A stretch of DNA of 64,000 nucleotides from the IMG/VR virus record IMGVR_UViG_3300017991_000105, positions 3,901-67,900 of that record, one strand, 5' to 3'. The stretch comes from a virus. The notes beneath the pieces were generated by a model. That model made no database searches. It was given only the letters and a program-made list of their open reading frames with translations, and was not told where the DNA came from. Below, piece by piece: positions 1 through 64,000 of this stretch. Each line of letters opens with the position of its first letter. The stretch's first letter is position 1. The translations under genes were made by a program, and so were the position numbers.

Positions 1-207
1 AGCCGCCGTGTCCGTGGGGTCCATCCGCCACCGGATGAAGGCCAGGAACAGAGCCCCGCCTATCAGCGTTCCCACTTCGTAGAGCCAGGACGCCGGGTGG
101 AGCGCTTCCCCTGACTTGGTCTGTTCCGCGTAGCTCTGATGACTCTGGGCCAGGGCCGCCGCGTAGCGTCCCAGGATCTTCTTCAGTTCATCCAGTTGGA
201 TCTTCAT
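1..207 (-). CDS. Hypothetical protein (runs off window edge), with hydrophobic segment
   Basis: Manual translation MKIQLDELKKILGRYAAALAQ...GTLIGGALFLAFIRW, open to position 1, GGAGG upstream. Confidence 0.65.
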   Translation of the reverse strand, partial: MKIQLDELKKILGRYAAALAQSHQSYAEQTKSGEALHPASWLYEVGTLIGGALFLAFIRWRMDPTDTAA

Positions 208-664
208 GGTCCCGTTCCTCCGCCAAACAGTTCAGACAGATCAGGTTCCCATCCACAGGAGCGTGGGGACCCCTGGGACCATTCTTGAATAGCGCGTTAT
301 ATCGAAGCGCCACCCCGTTGGGAAGCTTGACCTTCAGCGCCTTCTCTGACTTGTCATAGCCACAGACGGAACAGGACCCGCCCAACAGGTCAATCAAAGA
401 CAGCCACCTGTTCAGCTTGTCCTTCCGCTGGGCCGCCTGGTAACAGGACCTACAGACCTGATAGTGTTTCTGGCCGCGCCTGAATTCGTCCAGGTTCTTG
501 TCCTCCTGACACTCCAGACACATCCTGATCCGCTCCCCCTTCACAGGGGGCTTGACGGACTTGGTCCTGGGAGCGTAGGGCTTGCAATCGGGACACACCT
601 TCCGCGTCAAGCTGGCCAGCTTGAACTCCCGTCCACAGCGTTCACAGATAGCCATCTTGGACAT
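188..664 (-). CDS. Multi-zinc-finger protein with degenerate HNH-like C-terminal domain
   Basis: Several CxxC pairs; LGGSCSVCGY...LICLNC layout of phage HNH proteins but catalytic His residues absent. Confidence 0.6.
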   Translation of the reverse strand: MSKMAICERCGREFKLASLTRKVCPDCKPYAPRTKSVKPPVKGERIRMCLECQEDKNLDEFRRGQKHYQVCRSCYQAAQRKDKLNRWLSLIDLLGGSCSVCGYDKSEKALKVKLPNGVALRYNALFKNGPRGPHAPVDGNLICLNCLAEERDHEDPTG

Positions 665-1027
665 CTATTCCTCCGTTTCTTCGTCCTCCTGGTCCTCCAG
701 GACTGGGACTTCTATCTGGTCTACCTCCACGCCCTGGGGAAGGAACCAAACACCTGGGAACCTGGGGTCTGTGTCCACCTGGTCAGGGGTACATCCGAAG
801 ACCAAGGTGACCGCCGCCGTGACGGGGACCGTTTCGGAAGTCAGCTCCGTGACCGTCCACAGGTCATCATTGGAGTCCCGCATGGTTTCCCCTATGATCG
901 TGGAGGATACATAGCGCCTGTTCACGCCACACACCCAAGCCGTCAGGATCACTGTCACGATCCCCAGCGCCACGATGGCGAACAGAACCGGGACCAGTAA
1001 CGGGTTCAAGACTTCATACAGTTCCAC
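665..1027 (-). CDS. Membrane protein (start revised to GTG 1027, downstream of the tRNA)
   Basis: N-terminal TM segment LLVPVLFAIVALGIVTVILTAWV; purine-rich RBS before GTG; the longer track ORF overlaps the tRNA. Confidence 0.6.
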   Translation of the reverse strand: MELYEVLNPLLVPVLFAIVALGIVTVILTAWVCGVNRRYVSSTIIGETMRDSNDDLWTVTELTSETVPVTAAVTLVFGCTPDQVDTDPRFPGVWFLPQGVEVDQIEVPVLEDQEDEETEE

Positions 1028-1074
1028 CTTCTTCTCCCTTCGTGTTGGGCCTCTGGCCCGTTTCGTGTTCAGGA

Positions 1075-1147
1075 TAGCCCCAGGGGGAATTGAACCCGCC
1101 GCTACATGGGTGAAAACCATGTGTCCTATCCACTGGACTATGGGGCC
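1075..1147 (-). tRNA. trnE: tRNA-Glu (anticodon UUC)
   Basis: Reverse complement folds as a cloverleaf: GGCCCCA/TGGGGCT acceptor, GTCC-AGTGGATA-GGAC D arm, CATGG-TTTTCAC-CCATG anticodon arm, GCGGG-TTCAATT-CCCCC T arm (one C.C mismatch); no encoded CCA. Confidence 0.92.
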
Positions 1148-1153
1148 TTGTGT

Positions 1154-1390
1154 TCACCTGTTCCATGGTTTACAGAACGATCCTGGCCAACTGGCCCAGA
1201 CAGAGTCCCCTTCTTCAAAACAGGGGTCATACACCGCCCAGCCCGTGGCGTCATCGTGGTAGAACAGTTCAGCTTCTCCGCTGATGATCTTGTCCTTCAG
1301 GTCCGGGTCCTTGTGGCTTGTGATCTGACTTTCAACGTAGACAGCCTTCCGTCCGTCCGCGAAGACCACCAGATAGGTCTTTTCAGGCAT
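1154..1390 (-). CDS. Hypothetical protein
   Basis: 78-aa ORF with strong AAAGGAGG RBS. Confidence 0.65.
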   Translation of the reverse strand: MPEKTYLVVFADGRKAVYVESQITSHKDPDLKDKIISGEAELFYHDDATGWAVYDPCFEEGDSVWASWPGSFCKPWNR

Positions 1391-1433
1391 CCTTCCGCCT
1401 CCTTTCCTCCGCCCCCACGCCGTTGGCGTGGAG

Positions 1434-1469
1434 GAATAGAAGGAGTAGGAGCCCGAAGGCCCCTACTCC
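1434..1469 (-). terminator. Probable intrinsic terminator / stable hairpin with cUUCGg tetraloop
   Basis: Minus strand GGAGTAGGGGCC-TTCG-GGCTCCTACTCC followed by TTCTATT. Confidence 0.6.
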
Positions 1470-1506
1470 AAGTCCTAGCTTGACCAAGATGATCCAAAAG
1501 TCCACT

Positions 1507-1794
1507 TCAGTCCGCCTTGATCTGGGTTTCTTTCAGGTTGGGGAGCCTGTGGAAAGGCTTTTCCCCGCCCGCCAACATCCTGGACAGCCACCGGTATTCT
1601 TCAATGGTCCGTTCAGCCGCTACCAGCTTGGCCTTGGTGTCCCTGGCCGCCTGGTTCTCCGTCTGAAGATGGACCATCACCTGTTGGTTGGCCTCCAGGG
1701 CCTTGGCGTTGGTGTCTTCCAGCTCCTGAACCTTGGCTTCAAGCTCCTGGATCGTCTCCAATAGCTGGGCCTTGGTTTGTGTAGTGTCTGACAA
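1507..1794 (-). CDS. Coiled-coil hypothetical protein
   Basis: Heptad-rich 95-aa ORF, TTG start with AAAGGA RBS. Confidence 0.65.
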   Translation of the reverse strand: MSDTTQTKAQLLETIQELEAKVQELEDTNAKALEANQQVMVHLQTENQAARDTKAKLVAAERTIEEYRWLSRMLAGGEKPFHRLPNLKETQIKAD

Positions 1795-1834
1795 AGTCAG
1801 TCCTTTCTCCGCGTGGGGGTTCTTGGGTTTGGGT

Positions 1835-2305: not shown

Positions 2306-2354
2306 GTGGTCTTCCTTTCCGTGTTCGTTTCAGTGTGACGTGTGACTAGGGTGT

Positions 2355-2528
2355 CTATGAAGACTGGTGTGGGTCTAGCTCTTCCAATGCCTCCATGATC
2401 TGAGGGATCAGCCGTAGGTCATAGGGGACCCCGTTTCCCTTGGTTTCGTAGTCAGGAAGGGGGTAGTCCTCCAAGAGCGTCCCGTTCTCCAGGGATGTTT
2501 TAACCTGTTCAGTTGTGGGAAGTGACAT
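2355..2528 (-). CDS. Small hypothetical protein (57 aa, not in ORF track)
   Basis: Manual translation MSLPTTEQVKTSLENGTLLEDYPLPDYETKGNGVPYDLRLIPQIMEALEELDPHQSS; AAAGGGG RBS. Confidence 0.6.
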   Translation of the reverse strand: MSLPTTEQVKTSLENGTLLEDYPLPDYETKGNGVPYDLRLIPQIMEALEELDPHQSS

Positions 2529-3181: not shown

Positions 3182-4489
3182 TCAGGATTTTCTGGCCACC
3201 AGGACCATCTCCGTGGGGTAGGTCTGGCTGGCCCCTGGCCTGGCCTTGGAGAACCGCCCCGTCTTGGGGTTCCTGGTGGACGGGAGAAGCTTGGAAGGGA
3301 TCTCCCGCTTGAAGACCCTGACCAGCTCCATGGCCGCCAGGTCTTCTATCATCTCACAGAACACAGCCGCGTTCTGGATCTTCACTCCCTTCAGCGTGGT
3401 GTCACCTATGACTATGACCATGTGGCCGCCCCGCTTCAGGATGTGGGACATGGCCAGCCAGGTCTCCCACATGTCCAGGTAGTATTGGGACACAGCCTGG
3501 GACGTGTGAACATGTTTGTCCTTCAGCCTCCTGACTATCAGCCGCGCCAGGGAACTGTTGGGCTTCATCGTGGACGTGACGTTGGGCCGACAGTTGGACC
3601 CAATGTAGTGGGCCTTGGCCTGGGAGTCCGTCCCGCTCAGATCCAGCCAGGCTATGGATAGCTGGTGGATGGACAGATAGTCATAGGACGTACAGTAGGG
3701 AGGAGATGTCACGATGGTGTCCACCCGCCCCTGGGGCCAGCCCGTCAACCAGGGACTCTTGGGGATGGTCTGGTAGGCCCCAAGGTGACCCGCCCGGAGC
3801 CCCGAAGGGAGCGCGTCCCAGTAGGCCGCCATCCCCGCCTCCATGTAGTCCAGGTGTTTCAGGAACAGCTCTTCCGCGTTCCCTATCCGCTTCTCCTTGT
3901 CCTTCACTGGCTTGGTGGAACTGTTGGACCACCTGGACGCTGGTTTCAGGATGTGGCTGAAACAGACCTTCAAGAACATCTGGATCTCTGGGTCATCCAC
4001 AGTCATGATGTTCCCAAGAAGATGTCCCAGCCTGTAGATGTTCTCCTGGGGGAACCATCGAAGGATCAGCTCTTCATGGCGTTCTGGAATAATGGGTGAC
4101 GGGGACGGACGCCCCACCCAACCTCTGACCTTCTTCAACCGGTGGTTCAGCTTCTCTGGATCTATTGGCCGCGCCTTGACTTCAGTGATCAGCGTGGCCA
4201 AGGGGTTGATGTCCGCCCCCGCCGAAAAATAGCCCTTCAGGAGCCCACAGACCAAGGTGGTCCCGCTCCCACAGAAGGGGTCAAATATCAGAGCCGCCCT
4301 GTTCCCAGGGCCGTAGTCTTCCAGGGCTTTGTCTACCAACTGGGGGATGAACTTGGCTGGGTATCTGTGGAACCCGTGGGTGTAGGCTGACCGCTCCTTC
4401 CGCGTGGCTCCCGCGAAGGTCCAGTCAGGGTCCACCACAGCCCCGTCCACCAGGTTGGCGTAGTAGGCCGTCTTCCTGATAGCCATCAC
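3182..4489 (-). CDS. DNA amino-methyltransferase, alpha class (probably N4-methylcytosine)
   Basis: THGFHRYPAKFIPQL, motif I DPFCGSGTT preceding motif IV TSPPY. Confidence 0.88.
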   Translation of the reverse strand: MMAIRKTAYYANLVDGAVVDPDWTFAGATRKERSAYTHGFHRYPAKFIPQLVDKALEDYGPGNRAALIFDPFCGSGTTLVCGLLKGYFSAGADINPLATLITEVKARPIDPEKLNHRLKKVRGWVGRPSPSPIIPERHEELILRWFPQENIYRLGHLLGNIMTVDDPEIQMFLKVCFSHILKPASRWSNSSTKPVKDKEKRIGNAEELFLKHLDYMEAGMAAYWDALPSGLRAGHLGAYQTIPKSPWLTGWPQGRVDTIVTSPPYCTSYDYLSIHQLSIAWLDLSGTDSQAKAHYIGSNCRPNVTSTMKPNSSLARLIVRRLKDKHVHTSQAVSQYYLDMWETWLAMSHILKRGGHMVIVIGDTTLKGVKIQNAAVFCEMIEDLAAMELVRVFKREIPSKLLPSTRNPKTGRFSKARPGASQTYPTEMVLVARKS

Positions 4490-5816: not shown

Positions 5817-6568
5817 GACTGACTCCCGTTGAAGATGACAGGGTTGGACCCCAGTTGGATCTCCGGATAGGCTCCCGTGTCACCCCGCTGGTTCCAGCGC
5901 CACAGCTTGACGTGTAGCTGTTCTCCCGCCTTGGTGATCAGGCCCACATAGCCCGTCCCCCGGTGGTTCGTGGCCCTGTATTTCACGTAGACGTTCCAGG
6001 AGCCTGAATGGGGCATTGGGACCCAGATCAGACCGCGCATAGTCCCGTCAGTTCCCGCTTCCTTGGCCGCCACCCTGGTGATATACAGGTAGGGTTTCTT
6101 CTCCCCTGGGTGGTCCCCGTTGTCCGTCCAGTTGGTGGCCCCGTTGGGTCCAACACAGTAGGGCTGATCAGGACTCTTCTGGGTGTTCCTGGGCTCCAGG
6201 TGTTTGTAGTCCACCAGCATGACCTGACCCGTGGAAGGGTTGACAAACTTGACATGAACGAAGGACAGACCCGCGCCTTTATCCCGTCCGTTGATGTAGC
6301 CCGCCACGTAGTTCTCCGTGGCCAGGATGAAGCCTGGGTGTCCCTCCGTCAGGGCCGCGCCGTCATAGACAGGTCCTTCAGGGGGGTAGAATTCGATAGG
6401 ATCAGGGGGGTGGTCCTTGGTCCGGTGGTCCTTGGACCCACAGACTTCACAGGGTTCATATTTCTCCTGTTCCTTCTCCAGCCACTTCTTCAGCCAAGGG
6501 ATCAGGTAGTCACCCACAGCCTTCAGAAGCTTTCCCATGATGTTCCTGTTGAATAGACCCATGATCAT
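5813..6568 (-). CDS. Hypothetical protein with amphipathic N-terminus and zinc-knuckle-like motif
   Basis: CEVCGSKDHRTKDH (Cx2Cx4Hx4H); overlaps both neighbours by 4 nt. Confidence 0.7.
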   Translation of the reverse strand: MIMGLFNRNIMGKLLKAVGDYLIPWLKKWLEKEQEKYEPCEVCGSKDHRTKDHPPDPIEFYPPEGPVYDGAALTEGHPGFILATENYVAGYINGRDKGAGLSFVHVKFVNPSTGQVMLVDYKHLEPRNTQKSPDQPYCVGPNGATNWTDNGDHPGEKKPYLYITRVAAKEAGTDGTMRGLIWVPMPHSGSWNVYVKYRATNHRGTGYVGLITKAGEQLHVKLWRWNQRGDTGAYPEIQLGSNPVIFNGSQS

Positions 6569-7740
6569 CCCTCCAGTTCCTCCCAGGTGGTCATGGTGAC
6601 CTCCTGGGTCTGTGGCTTCCGCTCTTCCAGCGTAGGGACCAGAAGCCGCTTCCGTAGTTTGGGCTTTAGAGCGCCATTCATCTTCATGATCACCCGGGGG
6701 GTGATCTCTTCTATCTTCTGTTCCTGTAGTAACCAGGCTACCACAGAACAGACATCTTCATCATCCCAGTCCACGGGCTTCTGGCCGTTCTGAAGAGCCT
6801 GGATGATCTCCACGTAGGCCCGCCGCTGTTCAGGGTCCTTGACCGCGTACCAGCGGAACTTGGACGCCCATTCATAGACTTCATCATCCGTCAGGGGGCC
6901 TGTGGGAAGCCTGAACTCCCAGTAGGGTGTGGTGACCCGCTGTTCATCCAACCAGTGTTGGAGTTTTGTGTAGGCCACCAGGGCCGATCTGGACAGCGCC
7001 GCCTTCTCCCTGTTGGCTATCTTGGCCCAGTCCAGCCCTTCCTCTTCCAGCTCTTCCTTCATCAGGACCCAGTCATCTTGACGGTGTCTGGACAAGGTCT
7101 TGACCTTCTCTTCCCCATCGTGCCAGTAGTACAGACAGCCCCAGCGTTCCGTGGTCTTCCAGGTGGTGGAGTCCGTGGTGTAGTAGTAGCCCTTCTTCAG
7201 GGACCAGTCATCCGTGATCCCAAAGCCGTGGACCTTCGTCAGGAAGGCCCGCGCCACGGTCATCAGGTTCTCCACGTCCGCCCGGTCCAGGCCCTTGGTC
7301 AGCCCCACGTAGGGGAACCGCTGACACATCATTTCCCAGACCGCCATCCCCCGCTGGGGGTGGAACACAGGGATGACCGGGATCTTCAGGTGGGTGTAGG
7401 TGTCCCACCATTCCATGACCTGGTCCAGGCCCACCCATTCCTCCACGTCCAGCTCCACAGCCGTGTAGATGTAGTCCTGGTATTTCTCCAGCCAGGACAG
7501 ATATTCATCATGGTAGGCTTTGAAGTCATCCGTGTCTAACTCCCGCCCCTTCTTCTGGAACGTGTAGGCCCCGGAGTCCACCATGAAGTCCACGTCTGGG
7601 TTGGCTTCCTTACGCTGGACTATGATGTCCGGTCTTTCCCTCATCTTCCAGTAGCTGACCAGGACCGCGTCCACCCTGTACTCCGTCACCAGGTCAAAGT
7701 AGAACTTTTCATCACACCCGCCAAAGAAGATCCGCGTCAT
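6565..7740 (-). CDS. TGT/DpdA-like 7-deazaguanine DNA transglycosylase
   Basis: LVSY, FMVDSGAYT, ELDV, IPVFH, VHGFG, DSTTW motifs of phage TGT-like proteins; queC/queD in the same window. Confidence 0.75.
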   Translation of the reverse strand: MTRIFFGGCDEKFYFDLVTEYRVDAVLVSYWKMRERPDIIVQRKEANPDVDFMVDSGAYTFQKKGRELDTDDFKAYHDEYLSWLEKYQDYIYTAVELDVEEWVGLDQVMEWWDTYTHLKIPVIPVFHPQRGMAVWEMMCQRFPYVGLTKGLDRADVENLMTVARAFLTKVHGFGITDDWSLKKGYYYTTDSTTWKTTERWGCLYYWHDGEEKVKTLSRHRQDDWVLMKEELEEEGLDWAKIANREKAALSRSALVAYTKLQHWLDEQRVTTPYWEFRLPTGPLTDDEVYEWASKFRWYAVKDPEQRRAYVEIIQALQNGQKPVDWDDEDVCSVVAWLLQEQKIEEITPRVIMKMNGALKPKLRKRLLVPTLEERKPQTQEVTMTTWEELEG

Positions 7741-13249: not shown

Positions 13250-13765
13250 TCAGTCTGGGGGGTCTTCAGGATGGAACCACTGACGGAACCCGTGGACCAT
13301 CTGTTCCGTTTCATTCCTGAACGCCTGGTTCTCTGGGGCCTCCCCGCCGAAGGTGGCCCCTGTGGTGGGGGACTCCCAGACCGTGACTTCATGTCCAAGA
13401 ACATCCTGAAGCTTCACCGCCCTGTAGGCGTACCAGAAATAGCGGGCCAGGTTCTCCACTGTGGGAGGCCCTGGGATCAGGAACAGGTCATAGTCCTCCC
13501 CGTCCAGGTGGGTCTCCAGCGTGTCAACCAGGGGGTCAGCGTAGTCCAAGACCAGCCTGTGATCCATGGCCCACCTGTTGAACGTGTCCAGGTCACGAAG
13601 GTCTCCGAAGTCCACCACAAAGTCAGAGTCCGTTGGTCCGTGGATCGTCACGTCCACCCTGTAGGTGTGACCGTGGATCATCTGACAGCCTGGGACATCC
13701 TTCAGTCTGTGGGCCGCCGCTATGGGTTTCAGGTGTTTGAAGATCTTCATGTCTGGTTCTCCCAT
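13250..13765 (-). CDS. queD: 6-carboxy-5,6,7,8-tetrahydropterin synthase
   Basis: AAHRL...C..IHGHTYRV, DFGDL, DH, PTVENLA, VWES motifs. Confidence 0.92.
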   Translation of the reverse strand: MGEPDMKIFKHLKPIAAAHRLKDVPGCQMIHGHTYRVDVTIHGPTDSDFVVDFGDLRDLDTFNRWAMDHRLVLDYADPLVDTLETHLDGEDYDLFLIPGPPTVENLARYFWYAYRAVKLQDVLGHEVTVWESPTTGATFGGEAPENQAFRNETEQMVHGFRQWFHPEDPPD

Positions 13766-14499
13766 ATGTCTACGCCGCGTTCCTCATTTCGGACCTTGAA
13801 CAGCTCCCACCCGTGGCTCCTGATCTGGCATGACTCACAGGTCCCACAGCCGCGCCCCCATTCATGCTTGGTCATGTCCAGCTTTCCGCTGATGTGGTAA
13901 GACATACAGGACACCGTCTTCAACACCGTCTTCAGAACCCCAATGTAGTGGGCCGCGTCAAACAGGTCCGCCTTGGAACAGCCCCAGACGTTGGACGTGA
14001 CACTGAATTCCACGCCTATCCCCTGACTGATGGCGTCCCTGGCCGCCTCCATGAAGTCCTCTGACTGATCAGGATAGACAGGGGCTTCCGTGTCTGGTGT
14101 GTCATCCTCCAGGTGAACCGCCATGACTATGTCTTCCGCCTGGTATCTGGCCGCGAAGGTGGACGCGATAGCCAGATAGACCAGGTTCCTTCCCAACATA
14201 GTCCCGTCAGACATCCCATATTCTTCCGTCAGCCGCCTGGTATTGGACCCGCGCCAAAGATCGGAGATCCTGACCGTTTCCAGCTTCATGGTCCGTTCAT
14301 CCGTGGACCACATAGCCTTGGAGATCTTCTTGGCCTCCTTGACCTGGCCCATGGCTATCCGCCGGAACTCCCCCATGGCCTGGCCGTGTTCCACGTATAC
14401 GCTGACCACGGAATGTCCGCTGATGGCCAGTTCAAACAGCGCCACAGCGCTGTCAAGTCCCCCCGATAGTAGAAGGATGGTGTCCACTGGTCTCTTCAT
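13747..14499 (-). CDS. queC: 7-cyano-7-deazaguanine synthase-like protein
   Basis: PP-loop LSGGLDS, GRN, YPD, SC...CGTCESC zinc site. Confidence 0.9.
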   Translation of the reverse strand: MKRPVDTILLLSGGLDSAVALFELAISGHSVVSVYVEHGQAMGEFRRIAMGQVKEAKKISKAMWSTDERTMKLETVRISDLWRGSNTRRLTEEYGMSDGTMLGRNLVYLAIASTFAARYQAEDIVMAVHLEDDTPDTEAPVYPDQSEDFMEAARDAISQGIGVEFSVTSNVWGCSKADLFDAAHYIGVLKTVLKTVSCMSYHISGKLDMTKHEWGRGCGTCESCQIRSHGWELFKVRNEERGVDIWENQT

Positions 14500-19507: not shown

Positions 19508-21407
19508 CTTCAGTCAGCTCCTTCCAGTTGGGTCCCAGCTCCGCGTTCACTCTGATGGGGACAGGGAGATCCCTGACGCCTTCAGGAGCCTGAACCATCA
19601 GGTCCACGATAATGTCCCGCGCCTCCGGCGCCACGTCTTCAGGGGCTTCAAACAGTAGTTCATCATGGACCTGGAGAAGTAGGTGGGTGTCCAGCTCCCG
19701 GAGCCGCCTGTCATGGTGACAGCGGATCATGGCCTGTTTGATCCAGTCTCCCACGGAGCCCTGGATGGTGTTGTTTATCAGTTCACGTTCAGCCCCTAAC
19801 CTCTTGTCCTGGGAACGTGACTCCAGGTTCTCCACGGACCTGGGCCGTCCAGTGATCAGCGGAACGAACCCGCCAACCTTGTGAAATTCAATCCACTCCC
19901 GCCGCCAGGTCCTGACGCCGGAGTAGGTTTCAAAGAACCGTTCTATGTATTGCTTGGCCACCATCTCTTCCGTGGGCTCCCCCTCCACGGTCAGGGTCAT
20001 GGCCAGGTTGGCCGGTCCCAGCCCATACATCAGGCCAAAATTCAGGGCCTTGGCCACGGGCCTGGACACATGACATTCATCCGCTGTCATCTGGTGGATG
20101 TCCCCGTCCGTCTGGTAGACCTCCACCAGCCTGGCGTCCCTGGAAAAGATGGCCATCATCCTCAGTTCAAACTGGGAGTAATCCACATCTATCAGCGTGT
20201 ATCCTGGCCGCGCCCTGAAACAGGACCGGATGGAGACGGAGCCAATGTCCGCCCGCTTGGGAATGTTCTGAAGGTTGGGGTTTGAACTGGAGAACCGGCC
20301 CGTCACCGTCCCCACAGGGTTTAGGGACGTGTGAAGGACGTTCCCGTCATCCGTGTAAGACAGAAGCCCCGTCTTGGTGTTGACGTAGGTGTTGTAGAGT
20401 TTAGACAGGGCCGCGTGTTCCAGGATCTTGGGGATCATGGGGTGATATTCCTGGATCAGGGCCAGGGTCTTCTTGTCAACCTTCGCCTGGCCTTTGTCCG
20501 TCCTGGCGATACAGGGGAGCCCTAGCCCCTTCTTCCGTCCCGTCTCCCAAGGCTTCCTGAATTCACCAAACAGGACGTTTCCTAGCTGTTGGTTGGACGC
20601 CACGTTGAAGTGACCGCCCGCCTCCACCAGGATGTCCCCGTGTAGTTCCTCCAGTTTGTTCTCCATCTCCCAGGCCGCCCGGCTGATCTTGACATCATCC
20701 AGCATGATCCCCCGCCGCTCCATGGTCTGGACCACTTCCAATATCTGGGACTCCTGGCCCCTGAAGAACTGTTCCCTGACGGAAGTGTTGGGTCCGCCTT
20801 TCCTGGGGATGAACCCCACTGGGGTCAGCTTCAAGTGTTTCACGTCCTTCACTGGGGACGTTCCTTCCGTCAGAGCCTTGTATAGCTCCCAGGTGATGAC
20901 CGCGTCCAGCTCCGCGTATTCGGACAGCTTGTCCACATTCTTGAAGTCCACAGCCCTGGTCTGGGTCTGGTAGCGCCCGACCAAGGGACCCATGGCCTTC
21001 AGACCTTTGGGCCTGTTTTCATTCTGGCACCAACAGCCCACCATGGTGTCAAAGATCCTGACCAGGGGGACCCTGTGGTTCCCCAGGACGTAGTTATCAT
21101 AGTTGGAATTGTGAAGAACCTTCAGAACTGTGGGGTCCCCAAGGAACGGACCTAGAACCTCCAGGACCGCGTCCGTGGTAAGGAAGCCGGGGAACTGGAC
21201 CGCCAGGGGGATAGCGTATGAATGATATTCAGGCCCGTCACCCCAACACAGGGAGACCATGTTAAGACGCGCCCTTGGTAGCATCCTGGCGTCAGATCTC
21301 TTCCCTGGGATGGTGATGGGGAAGGTCTCTGTGTCGATGGAGAACGCGGGCTGGTCTTCCAGCCGCTCCCGGAGATCCCACAGTTCTTCAGGTGTTTTGA
21401 TGATCAC
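19452..21407 (-). CDS. polA: Family A DNA polymerase with 3'-5' exonuclease
   Basis: DTET exo I; TGRFSSSNPNLQNIP; motifs A DYSQFELR, B KALNFGLMYG, C VHDEL. Confidence 0.97.
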   Translation of the reverse strand: MIIKTPEELWDLRERLEDQPAFSIDTETFPITIPGKRSDARMLPRARLNMVSLCWGDGPEYHSYAIPLAVQFPGFLTTDAVLEVLGPFLGDPTVLKVLHNSNYDNYVLGNHRVPLVRIFDTMVGCWCQNENRPKGLKAMGPLVGRYQTQTRAVDFKNVDKLSEYAELDAVITWELYKALTEGTSPVKDVKHLKLTPVGFIPRKGGPNTSVREQFFRGQESQILEVVQTMERRGIMLDDVKISRAAWEMENKLEELHGDILVEAGGHFNVASNQQLGNVLFGEFRKPWETGRKKGLGLPCIARTDKGQAKVDKKTLALIQEYHPMIPKILEHAALSKLYNTYVNTKTGLLSYTDDGNVLHTSLNPVGTVTGRFSSSNPNLQNIPKRADIGSVSIRSCFRARPGYTLIDVDYSQFELRMMAIFSRDARLVEVYQTDGDIHQMTADECHVSRPVAKALNFGLMYGLGPANLAMTLTVEGEPTEEMVAKQYIERFFETYSGVRTWRREWIEFHKVGGFVPLITGRPRSVENLESRSQDKRLGAERELINNTIQGSVGDWIKQAMIRCHHDRRLRELDTHLLLQVHDELLFEAPEDVAPEARDIIVDLMVQAPEGVRDLPVPIRVNAELGPNWKELTEDVEAEGREEDQEEGAEAA

Positions 21408-22697: not shown

Positions 22698-23624
22698 CTA
22701 TAGGCCAACCAGCCGGGCGGATTTCAGTGAGCCCTGGAACTGGTCTTCCGTCATGTCAGCCGGGTCCTTGACGCCTTCTGGGTAGTCCACCTTGAACAGC
22801 CTGGTCCTCCTTCCTATCCAGCCGTCCACTGTGGTGATCATCTGTTCCCCGCCTGGGTCATTGTCAAACATCAGGACCACCCGCTGGCCGTAGTCAACCA
22901 TCAGGTCCGCCTGTTTTCTACTGGGAGCGCCACCCGTGGACACCACGTTGGGGTAGCCAAAGGAAGCCACCTTCAAAGCGTCCAGCTCCCCCTCTGTGAC
23001 TATCAGGGGCTCCCTGGTCTTGGACTCACAGGTCAAGGGTCTGAAGAGCGCCAGGCCCCTCTTGAACCCGAAGTAGGGAAGAGTCTTGGGTTCCACCAGA
23101 CTCTTCCTAGCCCGGCCCGTCATCCCGTGAAGCCGCTTCCCTCCGTCCTCCCACCAGGGATAGATCACCCTGTCCTGTTTGGGATCATAGCCCAGCCTAC
23201 AGTCCCCCGCCACAGCCAGGGACACACCGCGCTTCACCAACCAGAACCCCGCCTTCTTCTGGTGGACTTCAAAGGGACGAAACAAGGACGCCGGAGTGAA
23301 CTGGACTTCTTCGTTCATCCATCTCCGTTCAAACTCTGGGATGTCCCCTGTGAATTCCGGAACCGTGTAGGAACCGAACTTCCCGATGAACTCCAGCGCC
23401 CGTTCTTTCGTGGTGGCCATGACCTTCTGAACCAACCAGATCAGGGTCCCCTTGGCCCCGCATGAATAACAGTTCCATGGGTGGAACTGTTTGGTGGTGG
23501 AGATCCCCCAAGAAGGACGCCGTTCATGGTGGATAGGACACAGGCCCGTGATGTTGGTGTGTCTGGGGGTCAGCCCTTCCACGCCGATGGCTTCACACAG
23601 GTGGAGAAGCTGTCCCGCCGTCAT
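22698..23624 (-). CDS. dnaG: DNA primase (CHC2 zinc finger + TOPRIM)
   Basis: CPIHHERRPS...CYSCG; EGELD; FDNDPGG; KDP. Confidence 0.93.
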   Translation of the reverse strand: MTAGQLLHLCEAIGVEGLTPRHTNITGLCPIHHERRPSWGISTTKQFHPWNCYSCGAKGTLIWLVQKVMATTKERALEFIGKFGSYTVPEFTGDIPEFERRWMNEEVQFTPASLFRPFEVHQKKAGFWLVKRGVSLAVAGDCRLGYDPKQDRVIYPWWEDGGKRLHGMTGRARKSLVEPKTLPYFGFKRGLALFRPLTCESKTREPLIVTEGELDALKVASFGYPNVVSTGGAPSRKQADLMVDYGQRVVLMFDNDPGGEQMITTVDGWIGRRTRLFKVDYPEGVKDPADMTEDQFQGSLKSARLVGL

Positions 23625-52012: not shown

Positions 52013-52984
52013 TTAGGCGGACTCCCCGATGACCACATGACCACCTTCGATCAGCCCCACGCCCCAGATCCCGTACCACGCCAGCTTGTGGCGTCTTCCG
52101 AAATCATGGACTCCGTCATCCCTCAGTTCCGCCTCCAGTGAGACAGCCAGGCCGATGGAGTGATCCCCCACCATGATGGCCCTGTAGACATCTTCTGTCT
52201 GACCGGCTGTCACGTCATCCACGCCCGTGTCCAGGCCGTCAGCCCAGACGTTCCCTGACGCGTCGATGTAGGGGATCATCGTGGTTTCGATGAACCTAAC
52301 ATCTTCGTAGCGCCCGATCTCCCCACGGAAGATCTGGTCAGGAGCGCCGTAGTGGCTGGCGTCAACCCAGTGTTCATCATCACGGAGCCTCCGCGCCTGA
52401 TGGGGGTGGATGAAACAGATGTAGGCGTCCCCGTTGATCTTGGGGGCCTTGTTGGTGGCCAAGATTTCGACCATGTCCTTGACCATTTCGGTATCGAAAT
52501 AGTCAGTTGCGCCGATGGAATCCCTTCCCGTGGCGATCCCGGCGTAGACCACGTTGGACGCGGTCAACAGTTCATCCCTGATCATCCCGTCCCGATACTT
52601 GGCCATGTGATGGCCCAGCATGGTGGCGGAGTCAGAAAGGATGTCCGTGAAGGCCGTCCGGAGCGCGAACTCCGTCACCTGAAGGGCCTTACCATGTTCA
52701 GACACTGTGATCTGGATCTGGCTGGCCGTCAGGTTATCGGTTTCCATGTCCACGTTTTCCACCAGCGCCGCGTCCCCGGTCAGGGCCGCATAGCGGAGGA
52801 AATTGATGGTCCGTCCAGGCATGACAGACAGCTCTTCCTTTCGGGAAGCGATCTGTTCAAACCTCAGAAGAGGCTGGGCCTGGAAAAGGATTTCCCGGCT
52901 GTAGACTTCGATGATGGCCGGAGTGATGGGAACCGCGTTGGGGGTTCCGCCACTAGCTACCGCAGAGGTGATGTTGTCAGGCAT
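52013..52984 (-). CDS. Major capsid protein (N4-gp56 family-like)
   Basis: YSREILFQAQPLLRFEQ, EHGKA, HPHQARRLRDD, GEIGRYEDVRFIET, DFGR...LAWY. Confidence 0.93.
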   Translation of the reverse strand: MPDNITSAVASGGTPNAVPITPAIIEVYSREILFQAQPLLRFEQIASRKEELSVMPGRTINFLRYAALTGDAALVENVDMETDNLTASQIQITVSEHGKALQVTEFALRTAFTDILSDSATMLGHHMAKYRDGMIRDELLTASNVVYAGIATGRDSIGATDYFDTEMVKDMVEILATNKAPKINGDAYICFIHPHQARRLRDDEHWVDASHYGAPDQIFRGEIGRYEDVRFIETTMIPYIDASGNVWADGLDTGVDDVTAGQTEDVYRAIMVGDHSIGLAVSLEAELRDDGVHDFGRRHKLAWYGIWGVGLIEGGHVVIGESA

Positions 52985-55916: not shown

Positions 55917-55925
55917 GGCGTTCTC

Positions 55926-57851: not shown

Positions 57852-57852
57852 G

Positions 57853-59383: not shown

Positions 59384-59396
59384 GTCCGTCTCCTTT

Positions 59397-61385: not shown

Positions 61386-61399
61386 ACACTGATAGGCCG

Positions 61400-61693
61400 C
61401 TACTGGTTCCCGCTCTTCCGCCTGGTTTCCTTCGTTGATCTCTTTTCCCTTCCGCTTCCGTATTTCAGAGTCCTGGACGCTACCGCCTTCACGGAAGACG
61501 CCCCGCCTTTCCGCCCTTCGCCGCGCCTGGGGGATGGGTCAATCTTCTCCCCCTTGGACGCCTGTTGAAGGGCTTCCCTATCCTGGATTGACTTTTCCGC
61601 CGTCTCCATGGTCCGCTCCAGGTCCCATTCAGAATAGAACCTGAACCCTTCCATGAACGTCTTCTTGGCTTCTTTCATTTTCAACATAGTCAC
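61400..61693 (-). CDS. Hypothetical basic protein
   Basis: 97 aa, overlaps the upstream stop. Confidence 0.55.
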   Translation of the reverse strand: MTMLKMKEAKKTFMEGFRFYSEWDLERTMETAEKSIQDREALQQASKGEKIDPSPRRGEGRKGGASSVKAVASRTLKYGSGREKRSTKETRRKSGNQ

Positions 61694-62124
61694 GCCAGAA
61701 CGATAGTCAGAACTTGGATCAGAGCGTAGAGCGTGGTCTTCCCAAGGGCCTTCACAAACTTCTTCCGCCGCTTGGCTTCCTTGATCAGCTCCACCATCTC
61801 TTCCGCGTTCCGGGTTAGGGACAGGATCACCAGATCCGCGTCCATGTGGTCAGCCGCCAGTTCCAGCGCTTCTTCCATCTTCCCCTGACGAAGCTTGAAG
61901 TATATGACTTCCAACAGCTCCCGCCCGAAGGCCAGGAAGAGATCCGCGTTCTGGACTAGGACTTGTAGGTCTGTGGCCGTGAAGAGATCCCCCACAGGAA
62001 GGTCATCTAGCGTGATGTCTCCCACAGGGGTAGTGATGGTAGGACCCGTATCAGCGTGACTGTCAAGAAGGTCTTTGATAGTGTCTACCGCGTTTTCCCA
62101 ATCTTCTGTCTTTAGTTTACTCAT
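61690..62124 (-). CDS. Hypothetical protein with C-terminal hydrophobic anchor
   Basis: TLYALIQVLTIVLA C-terminus. Confidence 0.65.
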   Translation of the reverse strand: MSKLKTEDWENAVDTIKDLLDSHADTGPTITTPVGDITLDDLPVGDLFTATDLQVLVQNADLFLAFGRELLEVIYFKLRQGKMEEALELAADHMDADLVILSLTRNAEEMVELIKEAKRRKKFVKALGKTTLYALIQVLTIVLA

Positions 62125-62154
62125 TTCGTGAACCCATTTCCAGTCCCCGGGATG

Positions 62155-63114
62155 TCAAGCCCCGGTTCCTGTAGCGCCAGCGCCCAACAGTTGGGTCCGC
62201 CTGTATCCTTTCATGGTATCAAAGTCTAGCCTGTGACACGAAGACACAGACTCCCCAAGGGAAACTCCAGCTTCCTCCCCTATCATCTGGCCAACTTCCC
62301 AGACAGGTCTGGCTTCTTCTTCCACGCCAGGGGACCCGGAGTAGACACAGATCCCTTCCGTGTCATGTTTCCCGCCTTCGTCCTGAAAGCCGTGATCTGA
62401 ACAGACCACCCAGTAGTCTGGCTGGTACATCCAGACCAACATCTTGAAGATCTGTTCCACCCAACAGTGAATTCCGTAGACCCCATGATCTCCCAGGCCG
62501 CCGTAGGCGTGACAGACCCTGTCCACAGCTTTGGTCCCGACAGCCACCACGTCCTTGGACCTCAGATCATTTGAATGGCGAAATAGGAACCCGCTGTGGT
62601 AGCCAAGGATCAGGACCAGCGTGTCCAGAACTTCAGGCGGGAATGTGGCGTTGACCATCTGACCCCACACCGTTCCCAGCCTTTCGTCCATCACGTCAAA
62701 CAGGAATTCCTCTGGAAGGTCAATTCCCTGGGCTATGTCCAAGTCCGTAGGACTAGGCCATCCAGGAACGGTCCAGCTTTTCCCTACCACTTCCAGACCC
62801 CAGGTGAAGGGCATGAGGAAGGAAGCCGTGTTCTCCCCATCCAGCCAAGTAGAAGACCTGACATCCGCGAAGGTAGGACCAGACATGGTCCGCCCGTTCA
62901 TGATGACCCCGTGATCCACTGGCTGGAGTCCAGTGTAGATACTGGTCCAGTTTGGCCCAGAAAAAGGTTCCCGCGCCATGAAGTCCGTGATCATGGCGTC
63001 CGACCTGAAGAAGGAGCCCTGGTCTATGAATAGCCCCTTCTCTACACAGTAGCGAAATGAAAGCCCGTCAACTCCAAAGATCAATATCATGATCTTCTCC
63101 TTATCAGATGTCAT
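62155..63114 (-). CDS. Alkaline-phosphatase-superfamily nucleotide pyrophosphatase/phosphodiesterase
   Basis: IFGVDGL, PFSGPNWTSIYTG..P..HGV, D..CH, SDHGF, H motifs. Confidence 0.85.
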   Translation of the reverse strand: MTSDKEKIMILIFGVDGLSFRYCVEKGLFIDQGSFFRSDAMITDFMAREPFSGPNWTSIYTGLQPVDHGVIMNGRTMSGPTFADVRSSTWLDGENTASFLMPFTWGLEVVGKSWTVPGWPSPTDLDIAQGIDLPEEFLFDVMDERLGTVWGQMVNATFPPEVLDTLVLILGYHSGFLFRHSNDLRSKDVVAVGTKAVDRVCHAYGGLGDHGVYGIHCWVEQIFKMLVWMYQPDYWVVCSDHGFQDEGGKHDTEGICVYSGSPGVEEEARPVWEVGQMIGEEAGVSLGESVSSCHRLDFDTMKGYRRTQLLGAGATGTGA

Positions 63115-64000
63115 CCCCTCTGACTATGATGTAGTCTATGGAAATGGTGTCCGTCAGCGTTGGGTCATTGTTCTGGAACCGTATTCCAAAATTGGCGTTA
63201 TTATCCGAAGCGCCGCCTGAATGGGTGGAGATGTTGAACGTGTGGGGGCCTTTCCATAGATCACCGTATTGTGGAATAGTAGCCCTGGTGACCCAGGTGG
63301 AGCCGTTGGTGGTGTATAGGAACGTCACGTCCGCTTGGTCATCTGTGGAAGAATAGAAGGTGACCCTGATGTTATCCTTCCCCACTGTGGAGATGAACTG
63401 ATCCATGTAGTGGCCCGCGCTTCCGTTGATCGTCACAAAGCCCTGACCTGTGAAGTCCGTGAACCCGTAGCCTGGCTTCTGGTAGACTCCCTTCACTGGT
63501 CCCGTTCCTGGGTCATCCGGCCAGATGATGTATTCAGCGCCCACGTGGCCGCTGTAGGGGGACAGTTCATTGTGGATCGTCCTGACACTGGCCGCTGAAG
63601 ACGTGGTCCATGGTGGAACTTCAAAGGTGGGCTGACGCCCGTCTTCAAAGTCTTCATAGTAGAGAACACTGGCGGAGTCAGGGACCATAGGATAGCCGTC
63701 ACAAGCGTCCACCTTGATCTGATCAATGAAGAACTGAGAAGACGCCGTTGAAATTCCAGCCAGTTCAAAACGTAGCGTCAACTTGGTGTTGTGGGAGTAG
63801 GGGTGGGTCCCCAGCCATCTGGTGGACCCGTCTGGAACCGGTGGCGCTTCGTGGTATTCGTTGGCCCCAACCAGGTTCAGCTCCGCGTAGGTCCACGTGG
63901 AACCCACGTAGGGGAACCTGAACATCTCCCCTTCCACTGACGTGTTATTTGTCAGCCAGGCTGAACTGTTATTAGGGGACGCCCTGACTATCAGATAGCC
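63104..64000 (-). CDS. Virion protein with carbohydrate-binding-like beta-sandwich domains (5' end beyond window)
   Basis: Frame open to the window edge; YEDFEDG, Y.TNGSTW, FGIRFQ, ISIDYI patterns. Confidence 0.6.
   Translation of the reverse strand, partial: GYLIVRASPNNSSAWLTNNTSVEGEMFRFPYVGSTWTYAELNLVGANEYHEAPPVPDGSTRWLGTHPYSHNTKLTLRFELAGISTASSQFFIDQIKVDACDGYPMVPDSASVLYYEDFEDGRQPTFEVPPWTTSSAASVRTIHNELSPYSGHVGAEYIIWPDDPGTGPVKGVYQKPGYGFTDFTGQGFVTINGSAGHYMDQFISTVGKDNIRVTFYSSTDDQADVTFLYTTNGSTWVTRATIPQYGDLWKGPHTFNISTHSGGASDNNANFGIRFQNNDPTLTDTISIDYIIVRGDDI

What the first reader, a model, noticed from the sequence alone, without database searches (positions are those of the whole stretch)
1..64000. 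Extreme two-strand purge of the trinucleotide GCA/TGC, enforced by context-dependent codon choice
Seen: counting by eye in 1-3000 I find only about 6 GCA or TGC (e.g. 583-586, 880, 1387, 2388, 2645), where roughly 100 would be expected at this GC content. The scarcity appears to continue across the window, and many survivors are forced Met-Cxx junctions (ATG-C). Cys is almost always TGT, Ala is rarely GCA, and Glu-Gln is GAA CAG. Leu/Val switch away from NTG before C-initial codons: PolA motif C (19650-19685) reads CAC CTA CTT CTC CAG GTC CAT GAT GAA CTA CTG TTT. GGCC, GATC, CCWGG, GCGC and GCSGC are abundant, so this is not general palindrome or GC avoidance. Inference: depletion on both strands although all genes lie on one implies a DNA-level target rather than an mRNA interferase. 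A 3-nt non-palindromic target is shorter than classical restriction sites. It could reflect an undescribed host defence (nuclease, nickase, glycosylase or base-modifying toxin), a phage-encoded nuclease that destroys host DNA while the phage has erased the site, or a context the phage's own G-modification cannot protect.
Basis: partly seen in the sequence, partly recalled or inferred. Interest (0 to 1): 0.9.

Follow-up and report, generated by a model that had tools for sequence, protein, structure and literature searches.

The report
Phage genome purged of GCA/TGC
An uncultured sediment phage and its closest relatives have removed about 93% of the three-letter DNA word GCA/TGC from both strands, even changing their proteins to do so, which suggests that something in the infected cell reads a DNA target only about three base pairs long.

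Summary
The 67.9-kb record holds 128 GCA/TGC against about 1750 expected (O/E 0.07).

- **Not codon usage.** Under a protein- and codon-usage-preserving shuffle, codon junctions still hold 10-34 copies against 166-356.
- **Scope.** The loss is equal on both strands, holds in intergenic DNA (4 against 83.5) and in all 16 flanking contexts. It reaches the proteins: dipeptides that force the word are 4-5 times too rare, but normal in sister phages.
- **Clade-specific and current.** Five relatives with capsid identity of 90% or more, or polymerase identity of 74%, share it. None of 68 more distant capsid relatives does. Between two clade members 7.6% apart, 6 new sites arose against about 120 expected.
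- **Not hypermutable.** Surviving sites are kept at close to the neutral rate, so mutation bias is rejected.
- **Wider pattern.** The family also lacks most 6-bp palindromes.
- **DpdA.** The 7-deazaguanine gene DpdA also occurs in unpurged sisters. An N4-cytosine-type methylase and a block of unknown genes are specific to the purged clade.

Best reading (0.45): weak selection on each copy, imposed by a host DNA-targeting factor with a core of about 3 bp. Rivals are CRISPR PAM avoidance, a phage-encoded nickase, and a union of longer sites. The host and the agent remain unknown. This scan has flagged similar purges of other trinucleotides in other phages.

The parts
1..64000 (.). Genome-wide two-strand purge of GCA/TGC: 120 copies in the window and 128 in the 67.9-kb record, against about 1750 expected
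19650..19685 (-). Example of context-dependent codon choice in PolA motif C (HLLLQVHDELLF). Leu is CTA, CTT or CTC before C-initial codons and CTG only before TTT
   Evidence: PolA identified
583..586 (.). One of only 4 surviving TGCA tetramers (TTGCAA, a Cys-Lys junction), as an example of a survivor
3182..4489 (-). [quoted passage not shown] It is present in the purged clade (69% identity in G001) and absent from unpurged sisters G005 and G006. Its best cellular matches are Anaerolineae MAGs at 40-43% identity
4486..4848 (-). Clade-specific 120-aa small membrane protein whose gene overlaps the methylase start; not a nuclease
6565..7740 (-). DpdA-like DNA guanine transglycosylase (phrog_887, E 1.7e-35). 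Homologues also occur in unpurged sisters
13250..14499 (-). QueD (13250-13765) and QueC (13747-14499), which make the 7-deazaguanine precursor
188..664 (-). Clade-specific Cys-rich zinc-ribbon protein. The ESM Atlas places it near phage HNH and endonuclease VII clusters, but I see no catalytic His-Asn-His in the sequence. It is one of several paralogues in the left accessory block
22698..23624 (-). DnaG-type primase (CHC2 zinc finger plus Toprim), relevant only to the primase-site rival
52013..52984 (-). N4-gp56-family major capsid protein, used to collect 80 related loci for the clade comparison

Best explanation
GCA/TGC is kept out of this phage lineage by continuing purifying selection on the DNA itself. 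Each copy on either strand carries a small fitness cost. The cost is most likely imposed by a sequence-specific DNA-targeting factor of the host whose core recognition is only about three base pairs. Candidates are a frequent-cutting or nicking restriction-type enzyme, or a modification-based restriction system such as a Dpd-like or phosphorothioate-like one.

Shown: the depletion, its symmetry between strands, its independence from codon usage, its reach into protein sequence, its restriction to one clade, its ongoing maintenance, and the lack of hypermutability.

Inferred:
- The cost per copy is small (scaled selection about 4-5). About 130-180 copies per genome are tolerated and turn over at near-neutral rates.
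- The agent is therefore not an efficient double-strand cutter at every site. More likely it damages or marks a site with low probability, or is largely blunted by the phage's own methylase and 7-deazaguanine modification. Fitness would then fall multiplicatively with the number of sites.
- The stronger loss at GCAS and TGCA reflects flanking preference, or classical sites superimposed on the core.

The identities of the agent and of the host are not shown.
For: 1. Depletion beyond codon usage: junction frames hold 10, 15, 32 and 34 copies against 166-356. The pooled non-forced junction sites of G000 and G001 number 111 against 2413 (0.046).
2. DNA-level and symmetric: 0.039 on the coding strand and 0.053 on the template strand; intergenic 4 against 83.5.
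3. Every flanking context is depleted: 16 of 16 NGCAN at 0-0.31, and 7 of 7 strand-symmetric 4-mer pairs in both genomes.
4. Protein-level cost is accepted. The forced dipeptides MP, MH, MQ, WH, WQ and CA number 23 against 85.4 in G000 and 23 against 127.4 in G001. In the sisters they number 84 against 76.1 and 87 against 92.7.
5. Clade-specific: 3 of 71 capsid-related loci of 4 kb or more are purged (O/E 0.07-0.12), all with capsid identity of 90% or more. The other 68 lie at 0.86-1.39. L002 and L003 are also at 0.06-0.07.
6. Ongoing selection: L003 and G001 differ at 1500 positions (7.6%), yet only 6 new sites appear in L003 against 120.5 +/- 9.5 expected if the alternative bases were random.
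7. Not hypermutable: 26 of 36 G001 sites are retained in L003, against a neutral expectation of about 79%.
8. The lineage does evolve by site avoidance. 21 of 37 (G000) and 25 of 42 (G001) testable 6-bp palindromes are at 4% of expectation or less. Some differ between G000 and G001 (GGATCC, AGCGCT, CATATG), as expected from changing host restriction repertoires.
9. Short-specificity precedents in print, from passages read: phage HNH nickases with 3- to 7-bp sites and the chlorovirus nickase Nt.CviPII at CCD (PMC3592412); bacterial DpdA of the Dpd restriction-modification system, which needs a C after its target G (PMC10164549).
Against: - No restriction enzyme with a 3-bp site is known to me (recalled knowledge of REBASE, not searched).
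- The host is unknown, so no cognate system, methylation motif or chromosome composition could be examined.
- The purge is equally strong in all five clade members, although their 6-mer avoidance sets differ. A cause intrinsic to the phage, or a conserved host feature such as a CRISPR PAM, would explain that more simply than one restriction system among many.
- An efficient cutter would still cleave the 128-183 remaining sites, so the explanation needs the added assumption of a low hazard per site.
- Surviving sites on opposite strands are not kept apart: within 20 bp, 6 observed against 4.6 expected in G000 and 8 against 8.1 in G001. A simple paired-nick model predicts that they would be, though the test has low power.
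- The survey of Rusinov et al. (abstract read) finds avoidance almost only for orthodox Type II sites.
Confidence: 0.45

Rival explanations
1. CRISPR PAM avoidance. GCA (or TGC) is the protospacer-adjacent motif of a type I CRISPR-Cas system that is conserved in the host lineage. Each copy on either strand creates one more targetable protospacer, so each copy carries a small cost, and a genome with 14 times fewer PAMs is acquired from and attacked 14 times less often.
For: - The word is 3 nt long and non-palindromic, yet it is depleted equally on both strands.
- The cost per site is small and about 130-180 survivors are tolerated.
- The purge is uniform across clade members whose restriction-site avoidance differs. 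That fits a conserved host feature.
- PAM depletion attributed to selection has been reported for some phages (Kupczok and Bollback 2014, PMC4246573, abstract read).
Against: - I know of no PAM depletion approaching 14-fold. From recall, the published effects are modest; I read only the abstract of PMC4246573 and no effect sizes.
- The common type I-C and I-E PAM words TTC/GAA and AAG/CTT (PAM identities recalled) are enriched here, not depleted: GAA 1.62 and CTT 1.58, TTC 1.76 at junctions.
- GCA is not a PAM known to me (recalled).
- The depletion depends on both flanks: GCAS and TGCA are at about 0-0.07 and VGCAW at 0.02-0.31. A plain 3-nt PAM does not predict this, although competing codon constraints explain part of it.
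- The co-purged words (CGAS, TCGA, dozens of palindromes) look like restriction sites.
Confidence: 0.15
2. A phage weapon with self-avoidance. The clade encodes a frequent-cutting nuclease or nickase with a GCA core that shreds host DNA, as chlorovirus nickases are thought to do. The phage protects itself by having erased the word, with its own methylase covering the remainder.
For: - The purge is intrinsic to one phage clade and equally strong in all its members.
- The clade carries genes that the unpurged sisters lack: an SPPY methylase and an accessory block of about 16 ORFs of unknown function, including Cys-rich zinc-ribbon paralogues. The Atlas places one of these near phage HNH and endonuclease VII clusters (score 0.93; TM 0.56-0.60).
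- Phage zinc-ribbon HNH nickases have 3- to 7-bp sites. One of them nicks TG/CTC (GAG/CA), which contains TGC and GCA (PMC3592412).
Against: - The zinc-ribbon protein shows no His-Asn-His catalytic motif that I can see.
- No clade-specific ORF matched a nuclease family in Pfam or PHROGs.
- The ORF coupled to the methylase is a small membrane protein.
- The one fold attempted failed (pLDDT 42.7).
- Survivors on opposite strands are not spaced apart.
- A cognate methylase would make such an extreme purge less necessary.
Confidence: 0.12
3. A union of many ordinary restriction sites. The host range of this lineage holds so many restriction systems that the sum of 4- to 6-bp sites containing GCA (TGCA, GCWGC, CTGCAG, GTGCAC, GCATGC and others) removes nearly every copy.
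For: - The lineage avoids dozens of sites.
- The strongest contexts match known sites: GCWGC 0 copies; TGCA 4 against 120-215; CTGCAG, GTGCAC and GCATGC 0.
- The parallel CGA/TCG depletion does turn out to be composite. CGAS is at 0-0.09 and TCGAW at 0.08-0.09, but ACGAW is at 0.8.
Against: - Unlike CGA, GCA is depleted in all 16 NGCAN contexts. The contexts outside GCAS and TGCA are still about 8-fold low (82 against about 660).
- The six 6-bp palindromes that contain the word account for only about 75 of about 1750 expected copies (order-1 expectations).
- Sisters G005 and G006 lack 25 hexamer palindromes each, including GCATGC, CTGCAG and TGCGCA, yet keep GCA/TGC at 0.95 and 0.85.
- Covering every context would need about eight independent 4-bp non-palindromic specificities.
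Confidence: 0.1
4. Mutational decay. GCA/TGC is a hotspot for a deaminase, a methylation-linked change or a modification-linked change, and is lost by mutation bias rather than by selection.
For: - Context-specific mutation typically acts on 2-3 nt.
- TGC-TGT and GCA-ACA are the commonest differences at non-shared sites in the closest comparison (8 of 16 between L003 and G001).
Against: - A 14-fold equilibrium depletion needs about 14-fold hypermutability. Yet 26 of 36 sites are retained at 7.6% divergence, against a neutral expectation of about 79%.
- Ala GCA is replaced by GCC, GCG or GCT, and Leu or Val NTG by other synonymous codons. The position changed is whichever one is silent, not one fixed base.
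- Dipeptides that force the word are themselves depleted.
- Sister phages and 71 cellular loci show nothing similar.
Confidence: 0.03
5. A single-strand recognition event in replication. GCA is the template trinucleotide at which a primase starts (the host's, or the phage's own DnaG-type enzyme), or the motif of a single-strand DNA-modifying toxin. Copies on either strand are harmful.
For: - Primases read trinucleotides, and phage SP6 primase reads 5'-GCA-3' (PMC2532735, introduction read).
- A motif read on single strands of both polarities gives the same two-strand pattern (inference).
- The phage has its own DnaG-type primase and DnaB helicase.
Against: - I know of no reason or precedent for a phage to remove primase start sites (recalled: T7 keeps its GTC sites).
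- The primase gene is shared with unpurged sisters (42% and 33% identity).
- No DarT-like or other toxin motif of this form is known to me.
Confidence: 0.05

Closest known systems
Restriction-site avoidance in virulent dsDNA phages (survey: Rusinov et al. 2018, PMC6286503; abstract read)
   Same: - A short DNA word is selectively eliminated from a phage genome by synonymous codon choice, on both strands.
- It happens alongside the loss of dozens of classical palindromic sites in the same genome.
- It is lineage-specific and evolutionarily maintained.
   Different: - The word is 3 bp and non-palindromic, shorter than any recognition site I know.
- About 1600 copies had to be removed, not a few dozen.
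- Protein sequence was altered.
- About 130-180 copies remain, so the cost per site must be small rather than lethal.
PAM depletion in phages of CRISPR-bearing hosts (Kupczok and Bollback 2014, PMC4246573; abstract read)
   Same: A 2-5 nt non-palindromic motif is depleted by selection, and each copy adds a small risk.
   Different: From recall, the published depletions are modest; I read only the abstract of PMC4246573. Here the depletion is 14- to 20-fold and reaches amino-acid sequence. GCA is not a PAM known to me, and no spacer evidence was obtained.
Frequent nickases of viruses: chlorovirus Nt.CviPII (CCD) and phage zinc-ribbon HNH nickases with 3- to 7-bp sites (Xu and Gupta 2013, PMC3592412; passages read)
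   Same: These are enzymes that read about 3 bp. They are virus-encoded, and single nicks are individually tolerable.
   Different: From recall, chloroviruses protect their own DNA with a companion methylase. The passage I read says only that Nt.CviPII needs a cognate methylase when over-expressed in E. coli. No active nuclease was identified in this phage.
Dpd 7-deazaguanine restriction-modification system of bacteria (Gedara et al. 2023, PMC10164549; passages read)
   Same: It is a defence that marks DNA at a short G-C-centred motif (a C is required after the target G). This phage carries the matching chemistry (DpdA, QueC, QueD).
   Different: The only mapped site is within CAGCTG (CxGCxG), not GCA. 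Sister phages with DpdA show no purge. No host Dpd system could be examined.
Other trinucleotide purges flagged by this scan (GAG/CTC, CAG/CTG, AGC/GCT)
   Same: The same signature is reported in other uncultured phages: a strand-symmetric, codon-context-enforced loss of one trinucleotide, usually together with many missing restriction sites.
   Different: The words and the phage lineages differ. Those are unchecked AI notes that I did not re-test.

Membership tests
Classical restriction-site avoidance | The word is depleted relative to a composition- and codon-corrected expectation | tested here: met
   O/E 0.07 (Markov-1); 0.046 at non-forced junctions against the synonymous shuffle
Classical restriction-site avoidance | The depletion acts on double-stranded DNA: both orientations, coding and non-coding | tested here: met
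   0.039 against 0.053 by strand; intergenic 4 against 83.5
Classical restriction-site avoidance | The word equals the recognition site of a restriction system of the host | not testable with these tools
   The host is unknown. Its best cellular gene matches are Anaerolineae for PolA (36%) and the methylase (43%). No REBASE-like resource was available
Classical restriction-site avoidance | Site length within the known range of restriction enzymes (4-8 bp; range recalled) | tested here: not met
   All 16 NGCAN contexts are depleted, and contexts outside GCAS and TGCA are still about 8-fold low. The unit is 3 bp
CRISPR PAM depletion | A short non-palindromic motif depleted on both strands | tested here: met
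CRISPR PAM depletion | Host spacers match the phage, with protospacers flanked by the motif | tested here: inconclusive
   One search of 401 genomes of the class of an Anaerolineae MAG with window 40000-59999. The only hits below E 1e-5 were two matches of 35-36 nt to the poly-Lys (CTT)n repeat, and the rest were at chance level. The other 44 kb of the window and other phyla were not searched
Mutational-hotspot depletion (CpG-like or APOBEC-like footprint) | Remaining copies mutate much faster than neutral sites | tested here: not met
   26 of 36 retained at 7.6% divergence, against a neutral expectation of about 79%
mRNA-interferase (MazF-type) site avoidance | Depletion confined to the transcribed sense strand | tested here: not met
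   Both orientations are equally depleted, and intergenic DNA too
Virus-encoded frequent nickase with self-protection | A nuclease gene present in the purged clade and absent from unpurged relatives | tested here: inconclusive
   Clade-specific ORFs were listed. None matches a nuclease family. One zinc-ribbon protein is HNH-like by the Atlas only and has no visible catalytic motif. The one fold attempt failed
Virus-encoded frequent nickase with self-protection | Remaining sites on opposite strands are kept apart | tested here: not met
   Within 20 bp: 6 against 4.6 (G000) and 8 against 8.1 (G001); low power
Phage 7-deazaguanine DNA modification (DpdA pathway) | A DpdA transglycosylase plus preQ0-pathway genes | tested here: met
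   DpdA phrog_887 at E 1.7e-35; QueD and QueC in Pfam, both below NCBIfam cut-offs. QueE and FolE were not found among the ORFs scanned
Phage 7-deazaguanine DNA modification (DpdA pathway) | Presence of the pathway tracks the purge | tested here: not met
   DpdA homologues occur in unpurged G006 (42%), G005 (32%) and G007 (27%). Their motif specificities are unknown

The most novel reading that the evidence does not exclude
A so far undescribed agent in the infected cell reads a DNA target with a core of only three base pairs (GCA/TGC). It could be a restriction- or nickase-type enzyme, a modification-based system such as a Dpd-like one, or a CRISPR system whose PAM the phage has erased. It imposes a small cost per copy that is strong enough, over time, to rewrite about 1600 positions and even the dipeptide content of a phage proteome. 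Other uncultured phages flagged by this scan have lost other trinucleotides. This may therefore be one member of a widespread class of 3-bp-specific pressures whose specificity varies between hosts.
Probability: 0.5. Interest if true: 0.9.

Novelty: new variant of a known kind. Interest (0 to 1): 0.75.

Why it matters
Site avoidance is the oldest known anti-restriction strategy. It is understood as the loss of a few dozen 4- to 8-bp sites. Here a phage lineage has removed about 93% of a 3-bp non-palindromic word and accepted changes to its proteins. It continues to reject new copies, while sister phages with the same gene set do not. That makes a concrete, testable prediction. Somewhere in marine-sediment bacteria, or in the phage itself, there is a DNA-reading activity of about 3 bp specificity. 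The surviving sites, the clade-specific methylase and the purged/unpurged sister pair give the material to find it. An enzyme of that specificity would be new biology and a useful tool. If the cause is PAM erasure, it would be the first case of a phage escaping a CRISPR type wholesale through genome composition.

Tried and rejected
- **Artefact.** Rejected. The sequence recurs in contigs of other runs. The open reading frames are intact, and alanines conserved across 30 capsid homologues are kept. Which base is changed depends on the reading frame and the change is always silent.
- **Variants from runs.** Read laying displayed only 40 of 353 variants. Applying them creates 0 new sites against 2.35 expected (P about 0.09), which is not significant. 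No RNA holder was listed.
- **Type I or IIB half-sites** (for example GCAN6TGC, CGAN6TGC; sites recalled). Rejected by argument. Only about a dozen bipartite sites would need removing, so there is no selection on the other 99% of copies.
- **DpdA link.** Not supported.
- **Search for a clade-specific nuclease.** Pfam and PHROGs were run on the accessory ORFs. The Atlas was run on two of them. A representative search for the 120-aa ORF gave 1 real relative. AlphaFold2 of window 8316-9284 gave pLDDT 42.7, so no fold search was run.
- **Host search.** The best cellular hits for PolA and the methylase are Anaerolineae, but only at 36-43% identity, and the methylase family spans many phyla. One spacer-type search of 401 genomes found nothing usable.
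- **Paired-nick spacing test.** No signal.
- **Literature.** Searches found no description of a trinucleotide purge in a phage genome.

Full report
**What the window is.** The window is bases 3901-67900 of a 67.9-kb IMG/VR virus record (G000), which is linear and estimated 79% complete. It has no near match among cultured phages. Its PolA is at most 32% identical to any of them. Nearly all genes lie on the minus strand.

Annotation gives:
- an N4-gp56-family capsid protein, a portal and a large terminase;
- a replication module with PolA, a DnaG-type primase, DnaB, RecA, a Cas4-like nuclease, two RuvC-like resolvases and UDG;
- QueC, QueD and a DpdA-like transglycosylase, which belong to 7-deazaguanine DNA modification;
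- a MoxR-VWA pair;
- an SPPY-type DNA methylase.

The same sequence is held by contigs of several sediment and seawater runs from six studies. Independent contigs of run X4 match it with 0-1 differences over 811-2966 bases.

**The observation.**
- The window holds 41 TGC and 79 GCA against about 908 and 732 expected from a first-order Markov model. The next lowest trinucleotides are far less extreme.
- The whole record holds 128 against about 1750 (0.07), evenly spread.
- Codon usage shows Ala GCA in 12 of 1492 codons and Cys TGC in 12 of 195, although all other two-fold amino acids prefer C-ending codons.
- A shuffle of synonymous codons within each gene keeps the proteins and this skewed codon usage. 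It still predicts 166.5 and 323.7 junction-spanning GCA and 355.8 and 173.4 TGC, against 10, 15, 32 and 34 observed. No shuffle came near the observed counts.
The null is calibrated: in unpurged relatives the same test gives 241 against 229 and 183 against 171.

**Nature of the depletion.**
- I pooled G000 with its complete 99.9-kb relative G001 and left out every Met, Trp and Cys-Ala junction. That leaves 111 junction sites against 2413 expected (0.046).
- The core is equally rare on the coding strand (0.039) and on the template strand (0.053).
- All 16 NGCAN contexts are depleted. GCAG, GCAC and TGCA are almost absent (0-0.07). The remaining contexts are at 0.02-0.31, together 82 against about 660.
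- Some of the weaker contexts reflect competing constraints. Met-Leu and Met-Arg junctions need rare codons. For Phe-Ala and Ile-Ala the alternative codon creates TCG, which is also avoided.
- Intergenic DNA holds 4 copies against 83.5.
- The second depleted pair, CGA/TCG, behaves differently. CGAS and TCGA are nearly gone, but ACGAA and ACGAT are at 0.8. It is a composite of 4-mers, not a true trinucleotide purge.
- Of the 125 survivors inside genes, 34 are Met junctions, 9 are Trp junctions, 7 are Cys-Ala, 26 are in-frame codons and 49 are other junctions.
- The six dipeptides that cannot be written without the word (MP, MH, MQ, WH, WQ, CA) are themselves depleted. They number 23 against 85.4 in G000 and 23 against 127.4 in G001, but 84 against 76.1 and 87 against 92.7 in sister phages. 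The purge has therefore changed protein sequences.

**Phylogenetic extent.**
- Two relatives with 74% PolA identity (L002 in G001, and L003) show O/E 0.07 and 0.06. G001 as a whole has 183 against 2543, evenly along its length.
- Of 80 loci encoding capsid relatives, 71 are 4 kb or longer; the 9 shorter ones were dropped.
- Only the three with capsid identity of 90% or more (L016, which is G001, plus L017 and L018) are purged (0.07-0.12). The other 68, at 42-60% capsid identity, lie at 0.86-1.39.
- Sister phages G005 (76 kb) and G006 (85.8 kb, complete) share most genes with G000 in tblastn comparisons. They have GCA/TGC at 0.95 and 0.85 and no strongly depleted 4-mer.
- None of 71 cellular loci of 5 kb or more (9 of 80 dropped), including 11 from Chloroflexota, is depleted (0.75-1.29).

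**Selection, not mutation.**
- L003 and G001 differ at 1500 of 19,612 aligned positions. If the alternative base at those positions were random, 120.5 +/- 9.5 new GCA/TGC would appear, with a minimum of 92 in 200 trials. L003 has 6 that G001 lacks, and G001 has 10 that L003 lacks.
- My own calculation from that ratio (0.05-0.08), using standard mutation-selection theory, gives a scaled selection coefficient of about 4-4.5 per copy. That is clearly effective but far from lethal.
- Of 36 G001 sites in the aligned region, 26 are kept in L003 (72%, against a neutral expectation of about 79%). Survivors are therefore neither strongly conserved nor hypermutable.
- A 14-fold depletion by mutation bias would need about 14-fold hypermutability. 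This contradicts it.

**Context: a lineage that lives by site avoidance.**
- Among 6-bp palindromes without GCA/TGC and with a both-strand expectation of 10 or more, 21 of 37 in G000 and 25 of 42 in G001 are at 4% of expectation or less. Others (GAATTC, TGATCA, TGGCCA) are normal or enriched.
- A few differ between the two genomes. GGATCC is purged only in G000. AGCGCT and CATATG are purged only in G001.
- TCGA, TTAA, CTAG, GTAC, GANTC, CTCA/TGAG and CGAS are also low.
- The sisters G005 and G006 lack 25 hexamer palindromes each, but no 3- or 4-mers.
- GCA/TGC is thus the extreme end of a habit of erasing target words. That is the main reason to read it as a response to a sequence-specific DNA-targeting agent.

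**What tracks the purge.**
- DpdA does not: homologues occur in the unpurged G006, G005 and G007.
- Genes shared by G000 and G001 but without a tblastn match in G005 and G006 are the following:
  - the SPPY methylase;
  - a small membrane protein coupled to it;
  - window 8316-9284, 14579-15082 and 25979-26620;
  - MoxR;
  - an accessory block of about 16 small ORFs, several of them Cys-rich zinc-ribbon paralogues.
- The Atlas places one of these (window 188-664) near phage HNH and endonuclease VII clusters, but I see no catalytic motif in it.
- G001 also carries an ArdC-like anti-restriction gene in the 29.5 kb that G000 lacks.
- No nuclease specific to the clade was identified. The one structure prediction was too poor to use.

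**Mechanism.** The data require a cost per copy that is read from DNA on either strand. It must be small enough that 130-180 copies are tolerated, and it must be specific to this clade's situation.

I rank a host DNA-targeting factor with a core of about 3 bp first (0.45). The same genomes show dozens of classical avoidance signals. Enzymes and systems with very short specificities also exist. Phage HNH nickases read 3-7 bp and Nt.CviPII reads CCD (PMC3592412). The bacterial Dpd system's DpdA requires a C after the target G (PMC10164549). A low hazard per site would follow if the phage's methylase and deazaguanine protect most but not all copies.

The rivals are:
- **CRISPR PAM erasure (0.15).** It fits the length, the symmetry and the small cost per site. 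No PAM of this sequence and no depletion of this size is known to me.
- **A phage-encoded nickase with self-avoidance (0.12).** It fits the constancy of the purge across the clade. There is no candidate enzyme.
- **A union of longer sites (0.10).** The uniform depletion across contexts and the unpurged sisters count against it.
- **A single-strand event such as primase initiation (0.05).** SP6 primase reads GCA (PMC2532735).
- **Mutation bias (0.03).** Contradicted here.

**Novelty and caveats.**
- My literature searches found restriction-site avoidance and modest PAM depletion, but no genome-wide purge of a trinucleotide in a phage. Supplements were closed.
- Earlier notes of this scan report analogous purges of GAG/CTC, CAG/CTG and AGC/GCT in other uncultured phages. 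I did not re-test them. They suggest that the phenomenon is general and that the word varies between lineages.
- Gene calls here are my own simple ORF calls. Exact counts by frame depend on them slightly.

Noticed in passing
L061, L062, L064 (record G007; capsid 44% identical, GC about 65%): Another sub-clade of capsid relatives is depleted in AAT/ATT (O/E 0.13-0.18, Markov-1). At codon junctions L064 has 7 against 28.8 and 4 against 26.0, while GCA/TGC is normal. This may be a second, independent trinucleotide purge in the same phage family.
   Followed up: partly
G005 (L104-L107) and G006 (L099-L103): Sister phages without any 3- or 4-mer purge still lack 25 hexamer palindromes each (10% of expectation or less). 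Mass loss of 6-bp palindromes is therefore a family-wide trait.
   Followed up: partly
window 1-64000, coding (minus) strand: CCG is depleted at codon junctions on the coding strand only (267 against 989.5, with CCGA, GCCG, ACCG and CCGC low), while its complement CGG/GCGG is enriched. This is a strand-specific effect, unlike GCA/TGC, and it is unexplained.
   Followed up: no
window 188-664 and record bases 105-2322 (L108): A family of at least five Cys-rich zinc-ribbon paralogues ends in a similar C-x2-C-F...L-E-G motif. It is specific to the purged clade. Its function is unknown.
   Followed up: partly
L011:5270-6226 (+) in G001: An ArdC-like anti-restriction gene (ArdcN plus a zincin metallopeptidase) lies on the opposite strand, in the 29.5 kb of G001 that the G000 fragment lacks. 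It is another anti-restriction layer.
   Followed up: no
window 63104-64000 and L010:11729-16192 (-): The ORF that runs off the right end of the window is the C-terminal part of a 1487-aa protein in G001 that has an N-terminal papain-family cysteine protease domain.
   Followed up: no
L012:6937-7009 (-) in G001: The only tRNA gene found (Glu, anticodon TTC) has a TTCAATT T-loop. From recall the usual form is TTCGAAT. It thus contains neither TCGA nor CGA.
   Followed up: no
window 57797-57834: The (CTT)n / poly-lysine micro-ORF region gives matches of 35-36 nt in two genomes of the Anaerolineae class. These are low-complexity matches, not spacers.
   Followed up: no
window 1-64000 and G001: CTCA/TGAG (O/E 0.10-0.16 even after trinucleotide correction) and GAATC/GATTC (0-1 against 40-62) are strongly and symmetrically depleted in both clade genomes. 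These are further short non-palindromic or interrupted words.
   Followed up: partly
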